Below, one piece after another: positions 712-38,256 of a stretch of DNA of 58,404 bases. The DNA comes from a virus (lineage: Duplodnaviria; Caudoviricetes). The translations under genes and the position numbers were made by a program. The notes under the pieces were generated by a model, which was not told where the DNA came from, did no database searches, and saw only the letters and a program-made list of their open reading frames with translations. Position 1 is the first letter of the stretch. Each line of letters begins with the position of its first letter. Location of the stretch: IMG/VR virus record IMGVR_UViG_3300003465_000373, positions 1 to 58,404 of that record; one strand, given 5' to 3'.

Positions 712-783
712 TGCTTCTGGCAGGAGTCGAACCCACAACCTTTCGTTCGAGGCGAAAGATGATTTCCATTTCACCACAGAAGC
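712..783 (-). tRNA. tRNA-Arg(TCG), C at position 33
   Basis: Cloverleaf; anticodon arm TTTCG-CCTCGAA-CGAAA; T loop GGTTCGACTCC. Confidence 0.85.
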
Positions 784-788
784 CTAAG

Positions 789-864
789 TACCCCTGGCAG
801 GAGTCGAACCTGCAACATTCCAATTACGGTTAACCGGTTTAGAAGACCGGGCCGATACAGGGGC
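789..864 (-). ncRNA. D-armless tRNA-Arg(TCT)-like RNA
   Basis: Acceptor GCCCCTG/CAGGGGT, arm CCGGT-CTTCTAA-ACCGG, intact T arm, no D stem, long variable region containing AATTGG. Confidence 0.7.
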
Positions 865-870
865 GTTTTT

Positions 871-1473
871 CTAACCCTGTCTTGCTCGATTGAAAATCAT
901 TTGCACAGTTGGGACATGCTCAGAGAAGTACGTCAAATCTCCAAGGATTTCGATCATGGCGTCCCTAGCGTGCTTCTCATCAAAAGCAGAGAGCAGGTAT
1001 TCTGCTATCTGTACTAGGATCGGCATGACTTTGTTCATCAGCTTCCCAGACAAGTTTGCACCGACGTAGTTCCTTTGCATCATGAATGCTGGGTTGTTGG
1101 CCTCAGCCTCCAATACGTCCAATAGTGCGTCGGCATACTTGGTGGGAATGGCTAGTTTGAAGAGCGTTTCCTGTACGTTGTTGACCGCTTCCTGGGCCTT
1201 TTCGCCAAAGTGCTTCTCGCTGTTTTTGCCCTCAATCTCATCAATCATGTCCATCACATAACGAGCCGCCGCACCCGGTTTGCCCTCGTGCTTGGTGTAG
1301 CCGCTGACGAGTTGTCGGATAGACTGGATGTGGAGGTCGTCGCCTTGCTTGAGCATGTCGAGCAAAGCCCCCCATGCAGCCCGGTCGCCCGATCCAACCC
1401 CCTGCTGGACAAGAGTCGCCAACTTGTTCTTCTGCTGAGTTGTCTCAGCTAACCACACGCTGAACTTCTTCAT
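871..1473 (-). CDS. hypothetical protein with capsid-targeting-like N terminus
   Basis: 200-aa ORF starting MKKFSVWLAE; TAAATA just upstream. Confidence 0.7.
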   Translation of the reverse strand: MKKFSVWLAETTQQKNKLATLVQQGVGSGDRAAWGALLDMLKQGDDLHIQSIRQLVSGYTKHEGKPGAAARYVMDMIDEIEGKNSEKHFGEKAQEAVNNVQETLFKLAIPTKYADALLDVLEAEANNPAFMMQRNYVGANLSGKLMNKVMPILVQIAEYLLSAFDEKHARDAMIEILGDLTYFSEHVPTVQMIFNRARQG

Positions 1474-1498
1474 GAGATTATTTAGTTGCCGTACCCGC

Positions 1499-2473
1499 TT
1501 ATTTCTCTTCTGGGACTAGACCGGTCAGCCTCAACATGAGCCTTTGCCAATCAGTGTGCTCTTTCTTTTCAACCGGAGCAGACTCATCGCCGCCTAAGAC
1601 GCCGGCCGCTGCCGCACGTCTGCGGAAGTCTTCCTCTGCCTTTTTCCTCCGCTCTGCTTCGATCCGTTCTTGTTCCATCTTCTGCTGAACTCGGCGGCGT
1701 TCGGCATCACCCTTTTGGGGCCGCTTCTTAGGTTCTCCGAACAACGGGATTGGCCGCTCGGCATTGCCGTGCTGAGTTCCCATCGGCTTGGTCTTAAAGC
1801 GGGCGTCTCTAGTAAAATAGTCGCTAGGGCTGATGTTGTGGGTGTCATAGAAGGCGTTCATGGCATTTGTCACGCTCTCCACGTCTCCCACATTGAACTC
1901 TTCTTCGCCTCCGTCGAACAACAACTTGAACCTGCGATCACGACTGGCCATACTCAAGAGCATGTTCTTACCCTTTGCTGTCTTAAGCGACATCATCGGG
2001 ACTTCTTTGTTGCTCAACGAGTGAACCAACTTCATGTTGTATTGCCGACCGTAGTAAGCGAGGCCCTGGAGCATATTGATGGCCGTATAAGCCCTATCTT
2101 CCTGGTCTGGGCTGAGTGGCTGTGGTGGACTGTCGAGACGCCGCTCAATATCCCCAAGTTTCGTACCCAGGTCGCCCATCCGACCCATAAGCTCTTGATG
2201 CCTGTCCGGGTCTGGCGAAGGCGGGGCCGGCATTTTGCGAATGGTCTGTTCCAGGTCGCCAATCCTCTTGCTGAGTTCTGCCTCAATGCCTTTGAGCGAC
2301 TGCAACAACACATCCAATTTGTTTGGGCCTGGAACCCTAACTGGCTTTACCGTCGGTGCCGGTTCTGCTGCTGGAGCAGCCGGTGCGACCGGTGGCCTTA
2401 CCGGGGCCTGCATACTGGCTGGCAAAAATGCTTCATGCTGAATGTCTTCACATAGCTCGAAAAATCGCTTCAT
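1499..2473 (-). CDS. hypothetical Pro-rich/coiled-coil protein, possibly virion-internal
   Basis: 324-aa ORF starting MKRFFELCED. Confidence 0.7.
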   Translation of the reverse strand: MKRFFELCEDIQHEAFLPASMQAPVRPPVAPAAPAAEPAPTVKPVRVPGPNKLDVLLQSLKGIEAELSKRIGDLEQTIRKMPAPPSPDPDRHQELMGRMGDLGTKLGDIERRLDSPPQPLSPDQEDRAYTAINMLQGLAYYGRQYNMKLVHSLSNKEVPMMSLKTAKGKNMLLSMASRDRRFKLLFDGGEEEFNVGDVESVTNAMNAFYDTHNISPSDYFTRDARFKTKPMGTQHGNAERPIPLFGEPKKRPQKGDAERRRVQQKMEQERIEAERRKKAEEDFRRRAAAAGVLGGDESAPVEKKEHTDWQRLMLRLTGLVPEEK

Positions 2474-2515
2474 GGCCTTCTCCTTGCCAAGTATATAGCC
2501 GGGAGAAGGGAAAAG

Positions 2516-3127
2516 TTATGCCATCGAAAGCCCAACTATGTCTTCTTTCAAGAGTTCGTCTAAAAGTGGTTCCCCAACCGCCTTGGTTCTGTTCTTGACC
2601 GCTAATAGTACAACTTCGCCCCAGCCGCTTCCGCACACACAGTCTTCACGGACCACGCCCGGTATGTTGATTTCGTAGTGGAACTCATGGACGTGAAGGC
2701 CCAAGCTGCCGAGGAGATTGATGACAAGTTCGGCTGGAAGGCAGTGGAATTTGCAGTCCGGGGCGGTGGCATGTTCATGGGGCGGGTTGAGTGCCGCCCC
2801 CCAGCTAAGCATTAACGCCCCGTCGTCCTTCAGTTGGGCTACCATCGCCTTGATGCTCAAACGCCAGTATGGGTCATGTTCGAGCATGGAGGCCGAAATA
2901 ACAGTGTTGAACTTCTCCTCAAAGGCCATGTCGTGGGCCAAGCATACAACATCTACCAACGGGCCGGGTCGCCAGTCCACACCGACGTACTTGGCAGCGT
3001 CGAAATGCTCCCGAACCGTCCCGTTGACATCGTAGCTGCCGACTTCAAGAACGCTGATTTGGCCTTGGAAATAGTTGGGGTACTTGTTTTTGAAGTACCG
3101 CCAAGCCTTTCGATTTGCTTCGTGCAT
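2516..3127 (-). CDS. class I SAM-dependent methyltransferase
   Basis: VLEVGSYDVNG, YVGVD...GP.VDVV, SMLEHDPYW motifs. Confidence 0.85.
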   Translation of the reverse strand: MHEANRKAWRYFKNKYPNYFQGQISVLEVGSYDVNGTVREHFDAAKYVGVDWRPGPLVDVVCLAHDMAFEEKFNTVISASMLEHDPYWRLSIKAMVAQLKDDGALMLSWGAALNPPHEHATAPDCKFHCLPAELVINLLGSLGLHVHEFHYEINIPGVVREDCVCGSGWGEVVLLAVKNRTKAVGEPLLDELLKEDIVGLSMA

Positions 3128-3142
3128 GAAGCTATGTAGTAA

Positions 3143-3419
3143 TTACCCCGCCAGGACTCGAACCTGGACTACAAACTCCGAATCGCAAATGCTATGTTTG
3201 TGTGCTACCTACTGGTTCGGTTCCGCCATCCCATACTAGCCGGATTACTGGCAACTGGCTCAAACATGGGTACTAACAGTTGGCCTGTCCGGGCCTTCCC
3301 CCGGCTCACGTTTTTAGAGCTTTTGCGATTGTTACCAAAAGCCTTCGCCATGTTTTGCAAGCTGCGTTGGTCCGACGTTCGTGAATGGTTACTCCCGCCA
3401 GCGATTACACTACGGGGTA
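3143..3419 (-). ncRNA. giant tRNA-like RNA (Gln-type body) with ~193-nt D-loop insert and 19-nt anticodon loop
   Basis: Acceptor TACCCCG/CGGGGTA, D stem GTGT/GCAC, stem ACAAAC/GTTTGT, T arm CCAGG-TTCGAGT-CCTGG; insert 3210-3402 folds as a long rod. Confidence 0.8.
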
Positions 3420-3424
3420 GTAGT

Positions 3425-37374: not shown

Positions 37375-37468
37375 TGAACGCCGCAGTCGCCTTCATGGCC
37401 CCCACGATACAACTGCCTTCGCAACAGGTCTGGCCTTGCGGCCAACTTAGTGCAGGCTGACGTTCAAG

Positions 37469-37541
37469 TGCAAGGTACGGGACTCGAACCCGTAAACCCA
37501 CGTTGGCAACGTGGTGTGATCGCCAATTTCACCAACCCTGC
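37469..37541 (-). tRNA. tRNA-Gly(GCC), atypical A73
   Basis: CCACG-TTGCCAA-CGTGG. Confidence 0.85.
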
Positions 37542-37576
37542 GGCTCCAGCGAGACAACAAGTCCAAAAGACGTTCG

Positions 37577-37642
37577 TGATCTTCGGGTGGGAGTCGAACC
37601 CACAACCTCTCCAGCTTGTCACCTGGACACGATCCAAGATCA
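37577..37642 (-). ncRNA. D-armless tRNA-like RNA (GAC in an 8-nt loop)
   Basis: GATCTT/AAGATC acceptor, TCCAG-GTGACAAG-CTGGA, T arm GTGGG-TTCGACT-CCCAC. Confidence 0.65.
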
Positions 37643-37711
37643 TCCGGGGGAACCTTCTTCCAAAGAGGTAGTCCTCTAGGGCATTCTCGCAGTTAAGGCT
37701 TATTCAGCCAG

Positions 37712-37782
37712 AGACTCCGGTCGGATTTGAACCGACGTGTCTGATTTTGCAGACCAGTGCCTTGCCTCTCGGCCACGGAGTC
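37712..37782 (-). tRNA. tRNA-Cys(GCA)
   Basis: CTGGT-CTGCAAA-ATCAG, U73. Confidence 0.92.
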
Positions 37783-37790
37783 TTGTTGTC

Positions 37791-37979
37791 TCAGAACGGT
37801 CGCCAGATCAGGTAGCCGGCCCCGAACAGCACTGCCAGGATCAGCAGAGCCAGGAGCCAAGACAGCCATCCGCCGCCCTTGGGCGGCTCTGACTTCTTGT
37901 CCGTGTTCCCCTTCATGATCTCCTTGGCCACTACAGTCCCGACAACCACCGACGTTGGGTTAAGGAAGCCCATGACCAT
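37791..37979 (-). CDS. small membrane protein
   Basis: C-terminal TM helix; GGAGG RBS. Confidence 0.6.
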   Translation of the reverse strand: MVMGFLNPTSVVVGTVVAKEIMKGNTDKKSEPPKGGGWLSWLLALLILAVLFGAGYLIWRPF

Positions 37980-38015
37980 CCCTCCATGAAAAAGAGGACA
38001 ACCGTTCTGTCACAG

Positions 38016-38088
38016 TATTCCCGGCAGGAGTCGAACCTGGCATCGCTGGCTTCGCAGGCCAATGCTCTGTCCATTGAGCTACGGGAAT
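38016..38088 (-). tRNA. tRNA-Arg(GCG)
   Basis: TTGGC-CTGCGAA-GCCAG; A20-type D loop. Confidence 0.87.
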
Positions 38089-38199
38089 AAAAAAACCCTC
38101 CAGACTGGCTTCAGGCTGGAGGGTTCTGAGATTCTTATCTCTATGGTGCTTGCCGACTTACTCATGCTTCTCTTCAGTCGGTACACTTCCCTCCAGCCT
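38089..38199 (-). promoter_or_regulatory. transcription attenuator 2
   Basis: Terminator CCCTCCAG/CTGGAGGG-T7 directly before tRNA-Arg; antiterminator AGGCTGGAGGG (38189-38199) inside the leader ORF. Confidence 0.82.
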
Positions 38200-38256
38200 T
38201 GCGGAATAACGCAAGGACGAAAGACAAAGGCCCAGACTAAAGCAAAACACGTTCAT
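38158..38256 (-). CDS. leader peptide 2 (32 aa)
   Basis: MNVFCFSLGLCLSSLRYSARLEGSVPTEEKHE*; AGGA RBS. Confidence 0.75.
   Translation of the reverse strand: MNVFCFSLGLCLSSLRYSARLEGSVPTEEKHE

What the first reader, a model, noticed from the sequence alone, without database searches (positions are those of the whole stretch)
712..38256. Two tRNA clusters, each gated by a leader-peptide attenuator whose codons match the tRNAs it controls
Seen: cluster A (14679 to 712) carries W, P, M, Q, N, I, H, K, G, R, E, D, V, A tRNAs and no L/F/Y/C/S tRNA. Cluster B (38088 to 22011) carries R, C, G, S, F, Y, L, T tRNAs. Leader 1 (41 aa) contains all 14 cluster-A amino acids and no L, F, Y or C. Leader 2 begins NVFCFSLGLCLSSLRYSARL, dominated by cluster-B amino acids. 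Each leader sits on a terminator/antiterminator pair. Known: ribosome stalling in leader peptides controls trp/his-type attenuators, and host anticodon nucleases (PrrC, VapC, PARIS) deplete tRNAs during infection. Inference: the phage senses which tRNA group is depleted and switches on the matching cluster. I know of no description of this design. Caveats: leader 1 also has S and T codons, and cluster B spans 16 kb with likely internal promoters.
Basis: partly seen in the sequence, partly recalled or inferred. Interest (0 to 1): 0.95.

Follow-up and report, generated by a model that had tools for sequence, protein, structure and literature searches.

The report
Codon-matched attenuators gating phage tRNA clusters
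A huge phage appears to switch each of its two tRNA gene clusters on through a short test peptide, spelled with the codons those tRNAs read, placed before a stop signal for transcription, and the same design recurs in unrelated huge phages.

Summary
The window is a fragment of a huge T4-like phage with 49-50 tRNA genes on the minus strand. They form a Leu/Ser/Tyr/Phe/Cys(+Arg,Gly,Thr) cluster and a 14-amino-acid cluster.

Each cluster lies behind a unit of start signal, short ORF, alternative hairpins and a strong intrinsic terminator. These are the only two strong minus-strand terminators between 700 and 38100.

- **Leader 2 (38158-38256):** it recurs in G001, G003, LR756511.1 and five further IMG/VR loci, always Leu/Ser/Phe/Tyr-rich and upstream of such tRNAs. 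Only the window's copy has Cys, Gly and Arg codons, and only its cluster starts with tRNA-Arg, -Cys and -Gly.
- **Leader 1 (15917-16042):** it has one homologue, in LR756511.1, with the same five-segment switch abutting the stop codon. That peptide covers 17 of 17 amino acids of its cluster and gains Phe and Cys where those tRNAs have moved.
- **G029:** this huge phage, with no gp23-type capsid match, carries three such units (Leu; Trp/Val/His/Ile; general).

In seven of seven units tested, the leader contains every amino acid with a downstream tRNA. No expression data exist. Leader 1's codon-level match is weak, and no paper in the searched library describes this design.

The parts
38304..38332 (-). 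Promoter-like site of unit 2 (TTGCGA, 17 nt, TACTAC), inside the 3' end of the 103-aa ORF. Weak.
   Evidence: Read. It sits at the same place as the TTGnnn-17-TACyAT sites upstream of the homologous leaders in relatives. The consensus scan did not call it.
38158..38256 (-). Leader 2 ORF, 32 codons plus stop: MNVFCFSLGLCLSSLRYSARLEGSVPTEEKHE. AGGA lies at 38267-38270, 10 nt before the ATG.
   Evidence: Homologous ORFs occur in G001, G003, LR756511.1, L095, L096/L100, L099 and L101.
38206..38250 (-). Segment 1 of unit 2: regulatory codons 3-17 (V F C F S L G L C L S S L R Y). It is the U-rich 5' arm of the long 1:2 hairpin.
   Evidence: Fold (z -6.5). 13 of the first 15 codons are decodable by cluster-B tRNAs against 33% expected, P=3e-5. 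Modelled stalls at codons 2-15 leave the antiterminator formed.
38188..38200 (-). Segment 2 of unit 2 (AAGGCUGGAGGGA). It pairs either with segment 1 or with the terminator 5' arm, the latter forming the antiterminator.
   Evidence: Duplex -25.0 kcal/mol against -11.1 +/- 2.2 in shuffles, 0 of 1000 as good.
38089..38125 (-). Intrinsic terminator of unit 2: 5' arm 38114-38125, U-tract 38089-38095. The U-tract abuts the first base of tRNA-Arg(GCG) at 38088.
   Evidence: (dG -26.8).
22011..38088 (-). tRNA cluster B, 20 genes interspersed with ORFs: Arg, Cys, Gly, Ser x5, Phe x2, Tyr x2, Leu x8 and Thr.
16102..16130 (-). Promoter-like site of unit 1 (TTGACG, 17 nt, TATGTT), just after the stop of the cytidylyltransferase-like gene.
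15917..16042 (-). Leader 1 ORF, 41 codons plus stop: MSSMRPTTGMQHKWQGQVHAKPQTVRPVAAKPEQGNNIDTR. AGGAG lies at 16054-16058, 11 nt before the ATG.
   Evidence: 14 of 14 cluster-A amino acids are present. Full coverage together with 6 or fewer foreign residues occurs in 14 of 3649 real-protein windows.
15905..15914 (-). Segment 1 of unit 1 (CCUGAAACCG), starting 3 nt after the stop codon. A terminating ribosome would cover it.
15889..15898 (-). Segment 2 of unit 1 (CGGUUUCAGG). It pairs with segment 1 or with segment 3.
15874..15885 (-). Segment 3 of unit 1 (AACCUGAGCCGG). It pairs with segment 2 or with segment 4, the latter forming the antiterminator. The motif is shared with LR756511.1.
   Evidence: (6 of 1000 shuffles as good).
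15818..15854 (-). Intrinsic terminator of unit 1: segment 4 at 15844-15854, segment 5 at 15824-15836, U-tract at 15818-15823. The next start codon (15799) is 18 nt after the U-tract.
   Evidence: (dG -19.7).
14665..15799 (-). ORFs between unit 1 and the first tRNA: a 79-aa Cys/His-rich ORF (15560-15799), a 130-aa ORF (15167-15559) and a 119-aa HNH-like ORF (14665-15024) that abuts tRNA-Trp.
   Evidence: No Pfam hit for any of them. The HNH-like ORF next to tRNA-Trp is also found at the start of record G001.
712..14679 (-). tRNA cluster A, interspersed with ORFs: 27 assignable tRNA genes for 14 amino acids, 2 aberrant ARAGORN calls and 1 Rfam-only tRNA-like gene (789-864).

Best explanation
Both units are ribosome-mediated transcription attenuators. 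They make transcription of the phage's own tRNA genes depend on how fast a ribosome can read a short leader written in the codons those tRNAs decode.

Unit 2 has the classical four-segment layout.
- The Leu/Ser/Phe/Cys/Tyr/Gly/Arg codons lie in segment 1.
- A ribosome stalled there frees segment 2 (GGCUGGAGGG) to pair with the terminator's 5' arm. RNA polymerase then runs on into tRNA-Arg(GCG), which starts at the base after the U-tract.
- With smooth translation, or with none, hairpin 1:2 and the terminator form.

Unit 1 has five segments.
- The whole 41-codon leader, which samples all 14 amino acids of cluster A, lies upstream of the switch.
- The stop codon abuts segment 1. A ribosome that reaches the stop in time covers segment 1, so 2:3 and the terminator 4:5 form.
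- A ribosome delayed anywhere in the leader leaves 1:2 and the antiterminator 3:4, and transcription reads through.

The net effect would be feedback: each tRNA group is topped up only while the pool for its codons is limiting.

Shown: the sequence anatomy, its conservation and the leader/tRNA covariation. Inferred: translation of the leaders, stalling, read-through, and what depletes the pool.
For: 1. Anatomy in the window.
- Each unit has a start signal, a short ORF and a strong terminator.
- There is no room for a promoter behind either terminator: 0 nt to tRNA-Arg and 18 nt to the next ATG.
- These are the only two strong minus-strand terminators in the tRNA region.

2. Antiterminators.
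- The segment complementary to the terminator 5' arm beats 1000 dinucleotide shuffles in 8 of 12 units. The counts of shuffles as good are: window L2 0, window L1 6, G003 3, L096 0, G029 Leu 5, G029 WVHI 19, LR L1 1, G029 main 8.
- In the four-segment units and in G029 main it lies in or at the last codons of the leader ORF.
- Masking segment 1 of unit 1 switches the fold from 1:2 + 3:4 to 2:3 + terminator. LR756511.1 behaves the same way.

3. Conservation of leader 2. The peptides are:
- G001: MNFFSLSLSLFSSSSLFSYSAEGGCTV
- G003 and L099: MNTLSLSLSLSYSSLYLFSDGEGCVLT
- L096 and L100: MNTLSLSLSLSYSLLSFSNGEGCVLT
- L095: MNFLSLLSLSLFTLLSSYSTGGGCIV
- L101: MNVFLLSLSSLSGLFYSSGSGCIL
- LR756511.1: MHTFSASLRLSSYSLSSLLYSNVRRGT

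Each has a start signal and a terminator and lies upstream of Ser/Leu/Tyr(/Phe) tRNAs.

4. Covariation.
- The first 15 codons of window L2 are decodable by its own cluster in 13 of 15 cases, but by the G001 or G003 clusters in only 9 of 15. The four extra codons are TGC, TGT, GGC and CGT, matching the window-only tRNAs Cys(GCA), Gly(GCC) and Arg(GCG).
- The LR756511.1 general leader MYSATTRRWCVINKAEQQPCAFAGHKEPVFGDNIT has F and C and no L. Its cluster holds Phe, Cys and Thr tRNAs and no Leu, Ser or Tyr tRNA.

5. An unrelated lineage. G029 has no match to the window's gp23-type capsid protein. It carries three units:
- MKNASLLSLSLLLLS before 7 Leu tRNAs;
- MNNKIVHQVIWHVITFRGKGC before Trp, Trp, Val, His, Ile, Ile, Val, Met;
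- a 39-aa general leader that lacks V, H and W.

6. Statistics.
- In 7 of 7 units tested, the leader contains every amino acid for which the downstream cluster has a tRNA.
- The joint chance of full coverage with no more foreign residues than observed, for random draws from each phage's protein composition, is: window L2 0.0024, window L1 0.0058, LR L2 0 of 200000 draws, LR L1 0.00097, G029 main 0.0074, G029 Leu 2e-5, G029 WVHI 0.0026.
- Codon match of the first 15 codons gives P=3e-5 (window L2), 9e-9 (G001) and 2e-7 (G003).
Against: - There are no expression, ribosome-profiling or 3'-end data. No RNA run holding the stretch was listed.
- Leader 1, codon match: it is not significant at codon level (26 of 40 against 55% expected, P=0.12). 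At amino-acid level it is marginal (34 of 40 against 72%, P=0.04).
- Leader 1, foreign codons: it has 2 Ser and 4 Thr codons whose tRNAs lie in cluster B.
- Leader 1, relatives: it has a single homologue. Sequence searches in five relatives found nothing. The G001 record is cut just upstream of its tRNA-Trp, so its equivalent could not be seen.
- Leader 1 is 1.2 kb and three ORFs of 60 aa or more away from the first tRNA.
- The stop codon of window leader 2 lies 31 nt beyond segment 2, unlike in its relatives. In the simple occupancy model a ribosome at that stop leaves the antiterminator formable (0.7 against 0.48 with no ribosome).
- The antiterminator is no better than shuffles in 4 of 12 units: G001 153, L095 382, L101 98 and LR L2 470 of 1000.
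- The promoter of window unit 2 is weak, and internal promoters in the 16-kb cluster B are not excluded.
- No such unit was seen in G002, within 3 kb upstream of its first Ser tRNA, or in the G030 stretches scanned.
- Of 10 distinct terminators lying 45 nt or less upstream of a tRNA in the scanned loci, 6 have a matched leader and 4 do not.
- Five of the leader-2 relatives were found through their terminator sequence, so they are close kin and not independent.
- Part of leader 2's composition follows from segment 1 being a U-rich hairpin arm (my reading).
Confidence: 0.75

Rival explanations
1. The mechanism is the same (translation-coupled attenuation) but the signal differs. The leaders would report amino-acid starvation or general translational state of the infected cell, such as host shut-off or stress, rather than the size of particular tRNA pools. 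The codon match would then be only loosely tuned.
For: - A stalled ribosome cannot tell a missing tRNA from an uncharged one.
- The five-segment units respond to a delay at any codon.
- The general leaders sample 14 to 17 amino acids.
- Leader 1 also carries Ser and Thr codons foreign to its cluster.
Against: - Leader composition follows the tRNA set cluster by cluster and changes when tRNA genes change cluster. A general sensor has no need for that.
- The Leu-only and Trp/Val/His/Ile leaders of G029 are specific.
- Codon diversity within leaders tends to exceed expectation, and clearly so in one case: 35 distinct of 38 codons, none of 5000 simulations as high. In most leaders it is not significant.
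Confidence: 0.12
2. The conserved short ORFs or the terminated short transcripts have a function of their own, as a micropeptide, a small RNA or a processing signal for the tRNA precursor. The resemblance to attenuators would be secondary.
For: - The leader-2 region folds into a long hairpin with z-scores of -6.2 to -6.5 in three phages.
- Leader 2 peptides are hydrophobic and share an MN start and a G-x-G-C end.
- The terminator abuts the 5' end of the first tRNA, where RNase P must cut.
Against: - A micropeptide or processing hairpin would not need to contain every amino acid of the downstream tRNA set, as 7 of 7 units do.
- It would not need to change with that set across unrelated amino-acid groups.
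- It would not need an antiterminator that covaries with the terminator.
Confidence: 0.08
3. Chance: two ordinary operon-end terminators that happen to be preceded by short ORFs.
For: The window holds 729 ORFs of 30 aa or more, so short ORFs near terminators are expected.
Against: - The ORFs, their start signals and their composition are conserved in relatives.
- No promoter fits behind the terminators.
- Each of 7 units has a joint chance of 0.0074 or less.
Confidence: 0.03

Closest known systems
Leader-peptide transcription attenuators of amino-acid operons in enterobacteria (trpL, hisL, leuL, pheL, thrL, ilvL). Description recalled; the pheL model was also read in passages of PMC3082878.
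   Same: A short translated leader with regulatory codons, segments 1:2 / 2:3 / 3:4, an intrinsic terminator, and a decision set by ribosome position. Unit 2 has exactly this layout. The multi-amino-acid thr and ilv leaders (recalled) resemble the mixed leaders here.
   Different: - The regulated genes are tRNA genes of a virus, not biosynthetic enzymes.
- The leaders sample up to 17 amino acids, about one or a few of each, instead of runs of one.
- Unit 1 uses five segments, with the stop codon abutting segment 1, so that no translation gives read-through.
- No Rfam leader family matches: the best is Phe_leader at 18 bits against a cut-off of 55.
pheM leader of the pheST (phenylalanyl-tRNA synthetase) operon of E. 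coli (recalled, not tested here).
   Same: Attenuation by cognate codons that controls a component of the translation machinery rather than a biosynthetic pathway.
   Different: It controls a synthetase for one amino acid, not tRNA genes. The E. coli tRNA-Phe genes pheV and pheU have only a plain promoter directly upstream, with no leader ORF or terminator.
T-box riboswitches of Gram-positive bacteria (recalled).
   Same: They also couple expression of translation-related genes to the state of a particular tRNA through a terminator/antiterminator choice.
   Different: T-boxes bind uncharged tRNA directly and need no translation. No T-box match was found in the window. Here a translated ORF with start signal is conserved.
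tRNA arrays of huge phages (Al-Shayeb et al. 2020, PMC7162821; passages read). The relative LR756511.1 is an unannotated 'uncultured phage' record of 595 kb.
   Same: The same kind of genome: capsid protein 75.6% identical, 60 tRNA genes, and a Leu/Ser/Tyr cluster set apart from the rest.
   Different: That paper counts tRNAs and synthetases. The words 'attenuat', 'leader' and 'terminator' do not occur in its main text. Its supplementary files could not be seen.

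Membership tests
Ribosome-mediated (leader-peptide) transcription attenuator | A short ORF with ribosome-binding site and start codon in the transcribed leader | tested here: met
   AGGA 10 nt before the ATG at 38256, and AGGAG 11 nt before the ATG at 16042. 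Both spacings are rather long. The start signal and ORF are kept in relatives.
Ribosome-mediated (leader-peptide) transcription attenuator | Regulatory codons cognate to what the controlled genes supply | tested here: met
   Window L2: 13 of 15 codons against 33% expected (P=3e-5). Window L1: weak at codon level (26 of 40, P=0.12), but 14 of 14 amino acids are covered.
Ribosome-mediated (leader-peptide) transcription attenuator | An intrinsic terminator between the leader and the controlled genes, with no promoter behind it | tested here: met
   dG -26.8 and -19.7 with U-runs of 7 and 6. The distances are 0 nt to tRNA-Arg and 18 nt to the next ATG.
Ribosome-mediated (leader-peptide) transcription attenuator | A mutually exclusive antiterminator placed so that ribosome position decides | tested here: met
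   In the window 0 and 6 of 1000 shuffles do as well. Over all units 8 of 12 are significant. The stop codon of window L2 is placed less well than in its relatives.
Ribosome-mediated (leader-peptide) transcription attenuator | Read-through shown to depend on leader translation and on charged-tRNA supply | not testable with these tools
   No isolate and no RNA data: no RNA run was listed.
Ribosome-mediated (leader-peptide) transcription attenuator | The controlled genes are amino-acid biosynthesis or synthetase genes | tested here: not met
   The downstream genes are tRNA genes, small ORFs without a Pfam family and an HNH-like ORF.
Curated Rfam leader families (Trp, His, Leu, Thr, Phe leaders) and T-box | A match to the covariance model at the gathering score | tested here: not met
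   Only tRNA matches reach the gathering score in the whole window. In the two leader regions the best hits are Phe_leader at 18.2 bits (cut-off 55) and the trpB motif at 17 bits (cut-off 59).
Ordinary operon-end terminator followed by a separate tRNA promoter | Room for, and presence of, a promoter between the terminator and the next gene | tested here: not met
   The U-tract 38089-38095 abuts tRNA-Arg at 38088. The U-tract 15818-15823 is 18 nt from the start codon at 15799. No promoter-like site was called there.

The most novel reading that the evidence does not exclude
Huge phages divide their tRNA genes into separately switched groups. Each group lies behind a modular sensor peptide that lists the codons of that group, and the list is rewritten whenever tRNA genes move between groups. 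The sensors would work at the level of single tRNA species. The phage could then measure, cell by cell, which tRNAs the host lacks or has had cut by anticodon nucleases, and replace only those. That would be a virus-encoded supply-and-demand control of decoding capacity, and a counter-defence that is induced only when needed.
Probability: 0.35. Interest if true: 0.95.

Novelty: new variant of a known kind. Interest (0 to 1): 0.9.

Why it matters
**What would be new**
- Leader-peptide attenuation is a textbook mechanism. It has been tied to amino-acid synthesis and, from my recollection, to one synthetase operon.
- Here it appears to control tRNA genes themselves, in viruses. The leaders act as a written inventory of the tRNAs behind them, including 'one of everything' leaders of 35 to 41 codons.
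- If real, this gives the first regulatory logic for the large tRNA arrays of huge phages. It would explain why Leu/Ser/Tyr tRNAs are kept apart from the rest in several lineages.

**What it makes testable**
- A long-standing question becomes directly testable: are phage tRNAs made constitutively to fit codon usage, or on demand when the host pool fails, for instance after cleavage by host anticodon nucleases?
- The units are small, about 200 nt, and self-contained. They can be tested in laboratory strains and could serve as sensors of the availability of chosen tRNAs.

**Limits of the novelty claim**
- No paper describing such a design was found. The six searches of the held library on this design were made, plus passages of PMC7162821.
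- Subscription-only papers and supplementary files were not searched.

Tried and rejected
Searches and tests that led nowhere:
- Close relatives of the window around either leader were not found. The 103-aa and 130-aa neighbouring proteins have no relative in IMG/VR. The cytidylyltransferase has only 35-40% relatives.
- A pattern for the window's own terminator gave 25 unrelated loci; only one had a tRNA downstream on the strand of the match (1191 nt on) and none carried the element.
- A pattern for the shared leader-1 motif gave 14 unrelated loci, none with a downstream tRNA.
- Capsid-linked relatives: 30 loci scanned had no tRNA cluster within 10 kb. Of 18 further records, 2 had one tRNA each.
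- Leader 1 as DNA or as peptide against five relatives gave only chance-level hits, or none.
- The single metagenome scan, using the protein just downstream of tRNA-Trp in G001, returned a 1-kb contig in which tRNA-Trp is preceded by other tRNAs, not by a leader.
- BLASTN with the G001 leader against five records found nothing. That includes LR756511.1, which does carry the element, so such negatives mean little.
- The small Cys/His-rich proteins behind the two leader-1-type terminators are not significantly alike (E=0.55).
- I recalled that the E. coli tRNA-Phe genes might have attenuator-like leaders. The K-12 sequence shows only promoters, so I dropped that precedent.
- Sequencing runs: one DNA run with a 0.05 share of the sampled words, and no RNA holder listed. 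I did not lay reads.
- The occupancy model on transcript prefixes is crude. For unit 1 it does not discriminate (0.9 at every position), because 3:4 is more stable than 2:3 at equilibrium. I rely there.
- The codon-diversity test is significant at 0.05 for 3 of 12 leaders only.
- The script stopped with an error after 7 of 9 units. G001 and G003 were not computed, and I did not repeat it.
- I did not use structure prediction, the complex predictor, the protein atlas or the large protein searches. The question is about RNA and short peptides.

Full report
**What the window is**

The window is a whole IMG/VR record of 58,404 bp, estimated 12% complete. It encodes a T4-type portal protein (with an intein) and a gp23-type major capsid protein.

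Capsid relatives at about 80% identity are common in IMG/VR and include records of 223 to 533 kb. The nearest named record is LR756511.1, an unannotated 'uncultured phage' of 595 kb, at 75.6%. The window is therefore a fragment of a huge T4-like phage.

**Checking the observation**

ARAGORN finds 49 tRNA genes, all on the minus strand. Rfam confirms 40 of them at the gathering score and adds one tRNA-like gene at 789-864.
- From 38088 to 22011 there are 20 genes for Arg, Cys, Gly, Ser, Phe, Tyr, Leu and Thr.
- From 14679 to 712 there are 27 assignable genes for 14 other amino acids, with none for Leu, Phe, Tyr, Cys, Ser or Thr.
- Two further ARAGORN calls and the Rfam-only gene fold aberrantly.

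Leader 1 is the ORF at 15917-16042(-), 41 codons. It is the only one of 729 ORFs of 30 aa or more in six frames without L, F, Y or C. Leader 2 is the ORF at 38158-38256(-), 32 codons.

A scan of my own for hairpins followed by U-runs finds only two strong terminators on the minus strand between 700 and 38100, and they are exactly these two sites.

**Anatomy of unit 2**

The leader ORF region folds into a long hairpin (z -6.5).
- The 5' arm is the U-rich run of codons 3-17.
- The 3' arm contains GGCUGGAGGG, a perfect 10-nt complement of the terminator's 5' arm CCCUCCAGCC.
- That duplex scores -25.0 kcal/mol against -11.1 +/- 2.2 for 1000 dinucleotide shuffles, and none is as good.
- The U-tract (38089-38095) abuts the first base of tRNA-Arg(GCG) at 38088. 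That tRNA can therefore only be made by reading through the terminator.

This is the classical 1:2 / 2:3 / 3:4 layout. In a simple occupancy model, a ribosome stalled at codons 2-15 leaves the antiterminator formed (0.8). With no ribosome the value is 0.48.

**Anatomy of unit 1**

A promoter-like site (TTGACG, 17 nt, TATGTT) precedes AGGAG and the 41-codon ORF. Five segments follow the stop codon.
- Segment 1 starts 3 nt after the stop.
- The possible pairings are 1:2, 2:3, 3:4 and 4:5, and 4:5 is the terminator.
- Folding growing transcripts gives 1:2 and then 3:4, the read-through form (-39.7 kcal/mol without segment 5).
- Masking everything up to segment 1, as a terminating ribosome would, gives 2:3 plus the terminator (-42.2).
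- The 3:4 duplex beats all but 6 of 1000 shuffles.
- The next start codon is 18 nt after the U-tract.
- Three ORFs of 60 aa or more (79, 130 and 119 aa, the last HNH-like) lie between this unit and tRNA-Trp.

**Leader 2 in relatives**

In the records reached through the capsid gene, the Leu/Ser/Tyr(/Phe) tRNAs again form their own cluster.

Upstream of that cluster, G003 and G001 carry an ORF with start signal, rich in L, S, F and Y, followed by a very strong terminator. LR756511.1 does too. In G002 I saw none within 3 kb upstream of the first Ser tRNA. That makes 4 of 5 clusters, counting the window.

A pattern built from the G001/G003 terminator alone found 7 IMG/VR loci. Two of them are G001 and G003 themselves. 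All 5 new ones have the ORF.

The regions fold with z-scores of -6.2 and -6.4 in G003 and G001. The leader segment that pairs with the terminator changes together with the terminator:
- window: GGCUGGAGGG with CCCUCCAGCC;
- G003 and L096: a 12-pair duplex, with 3 and 0 of 1000 shuffles as good;
- G001, L095, L101 and LR756511.1: the duplex is not better than shuffles (153, 382, 98 and 470 of 1000).

**Leader and tRNA set change together**

The first 15 codons of window leader 2 are decodable by its own cluster in 13 of 15 cases (33% expected, P=3e-5). The G001 or G003 clusters decode only 9 of 15. The difference is TGC, TGT, GGC and CGT. The window alone has tRNA-Cys(GCA), -Gly(GCC) and -Arg(GCG) at the head of the cluster.

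G001 scores 14 of 15 (P=9e-9) and G003 13 of 15 (P=2e-7). LR756511.1 has no Phe tRNA in this cluster, and its leader has a single F.

**Leader 1 has a homologue**

In LR756511.1 the large cluster is preceded by a promoter-like site, a tRNA-Met, AAGGA and a 35-codon ORF, then the same five-segment switch.
- Segment 1 abuts the stop codon.
- It shares the AACCUGAGCCG motif with the window.
- The read-through form scores -39.3 and the ribosome-at-stop form -47.3 kcal/mol.
- The antiterminator beats all but 1 of 1000 shuffles.

The two peptides end alike (GNNIDTR and GDNIT). The LR756511.1 peptide has no Leu. It contains all 17 amino acids for which the cluster behind it has tRNAs, including Phe, Cys and Thr, which in that phage sit in this cluster. 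Its only foreign residues are Y and S at positions 2 and 3.

No real-protein window of the same length from that phage does as well (0 of 3248). Window leader 1 is matched by 14 of 3649.

**A different lineage**

G029 was reached through homologues of the HNH-like ORF. It is a 494-kb record, 98% complete, with 72 tRNA matches. It has no match to the window's capsid protein. It has three units:
- a Leu/Ser-rich 15-codon leader and terminator, 27 nt before seven Leu tRNAs;
- a leader MNNKIVHQVIWHVITFRGKGC and terminator, 41 nt before Trp, Trp, Val, His, Ile, Ile, Val, Met;
- a 39-codon general leader before the main array. It covers 14 of 14 amino acids of that array and lacks V, H and W.

The antiterminators beat all but 5, 19 and 8 of 1000 shuffles.

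In all 7 units tested, in the window, LR756511.1 and G029, the leader contains every amino acid that has a downstream tRNA. The joint chance of that, together with no more foreign residues than observed, is 0.0074 or less for each unit.

**Mechanism**

The best reading is ribosome-mediated attenuation used as feedback on tRNA supply. Slow reading of the listed codons lets RNA polymerase into the tRNA genes. Once the pool suffices, the terminator forms.
- Unit 2 senses stalls inside segment 1.
- Unit 1 times the arrival of the ribosome at the stop codon after a leader that samples the whole set.

The anatomy, the conservation and the covariation are shown. Translation, stalling, read-through and the natural trigger are inferred.

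**What speaks against it**
- There are no expression data (one search lists no RNA run).
- Leader 1 matches weakly at codon level (26 of 40, P=0.12). It has 6 Ser or Thr codons foreign to its cluster, and only one homologue.
- The stop codon of window leader 2 is 31 nt past segment 2, so the replete-state logic is less clean than in its relatives.
- Four of 12 antiterminators are not significant.
- The promoter of window unit 2 is weak.
- Cluster B spans 16 kb with many ORFs, and internal promoters are not excluded.
- G002 and the G030 stretches scanned show no unit.
- Of 10 terminators lying 45 nt or less before a tRNA, 4 have no matched leader.
- Five relatives were found through their terminator and are close kin.

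**Comparison with what is known, and novelty**

The layout is that of the trp/his/leu/pheA attenuators. The controlled genes are tRNA genes, the leaders are inventories of many amino acids, and one type uses five segments.
- No Rfam leader or T-box model matches.
- The E. coli tRNA-Phe genes have plain promoters.
- Six searches of the held literature for this design, and passages of the huge-phage paper, gave no description of leader-peptide control of tRNA genes. Supplements and subscription-only papers were not seen.

I rate it a new variant of a known kind of mechanism, of high interest.

Noticed in passing
window 32490-33554 (-); also L089, L092, L094, L101: Five tRNAs of ordinary length (75-76 nt, no long variable arm) carry all five Leu anticodons (taa, gag, tag, cag, caa). 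Three of them are clearly paralogous. They sit beside normal 83-84 nt Leu tRNAs. Short Leu-anticodon tRNAs recur in G001, G002, G003 and L101. Which amino acid they accept is unknown.
   Followed up: partly
window 37177-38088 (-): The first four tRNAs of cluster B carry anticodons GCG, GCA, GCC and GCU (Arg, Cys, Gly, Ser), that is, all four GCN anticodons in a row. The Arg, Cys and Gly genes are not notably alike in sequence (the Ser gene was not aligned).
   Followed up: partly
window 52425-55004 (-): The T4-type portal gene contains an intein splicing domain.
   Followed up: no
window 14665-15024 (-); L087 1-144; L110-L118: An HNH-like ORF abuts tRNA-Trp. The same arrangement opens record G001. 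Homologues at 44-53% identity sit beside or inside tRNA genes and arrays in other viral records. This suggests homing endonucleases that target tRNA arrays.
   Followed up: partly
window 20436-21614, 22193-23152, 38632-39060, 16138-17492, 40681-41451 (all -): Auxiliary genes among the tRNAs: indoleamine 2,3-dioxygenase-like, ADP-ribosylglycohydrolase, an Fe-S assembly protein (Pfam Fe-S_biosyn), an RmlD-like reductase with a cytidylyltransferase, and a C13 peptidase-like protein.
   Followed up: no
L090 736-826 (-); L117 7902-7977: tRNAs with anticodon CTA (amber-reading, labelled Pyl by ARAGORN) lie inside the tRNA arrays of G001 and G030.
   Followed up: no
L162 about 10535-10545 (-); L124 about 6685-6695 (+): A TTGACA hexamer lies directly after the attenuator terminator, 15-25 nt before the first tRNA, in both LR756511.1 and G029. 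That is too close to serve that tRNA as a promoter.
   Followed up: no
L121 4440-4495 (+), the same stretch in L131: A strong terminator-like hairpin (dG -21.9) ends 6 nt before tRNA-Ala in G029 and G032, with no leader ORF. It follows a protein gene directly. So not every hairpin before a tRNA belongs to a leader unit.
   Followed up: partly
L130 2530-2650 (+): The general leader of G029 and G032 uses 35 distinct codons in 38, against 28.4 +/- 1.8 expected from that phage's codon usage (none of 5000 simulations as high). The other leaders lean the same way, mostly without significance. This hints at sensing single tRNA species.
   Followed up: partly
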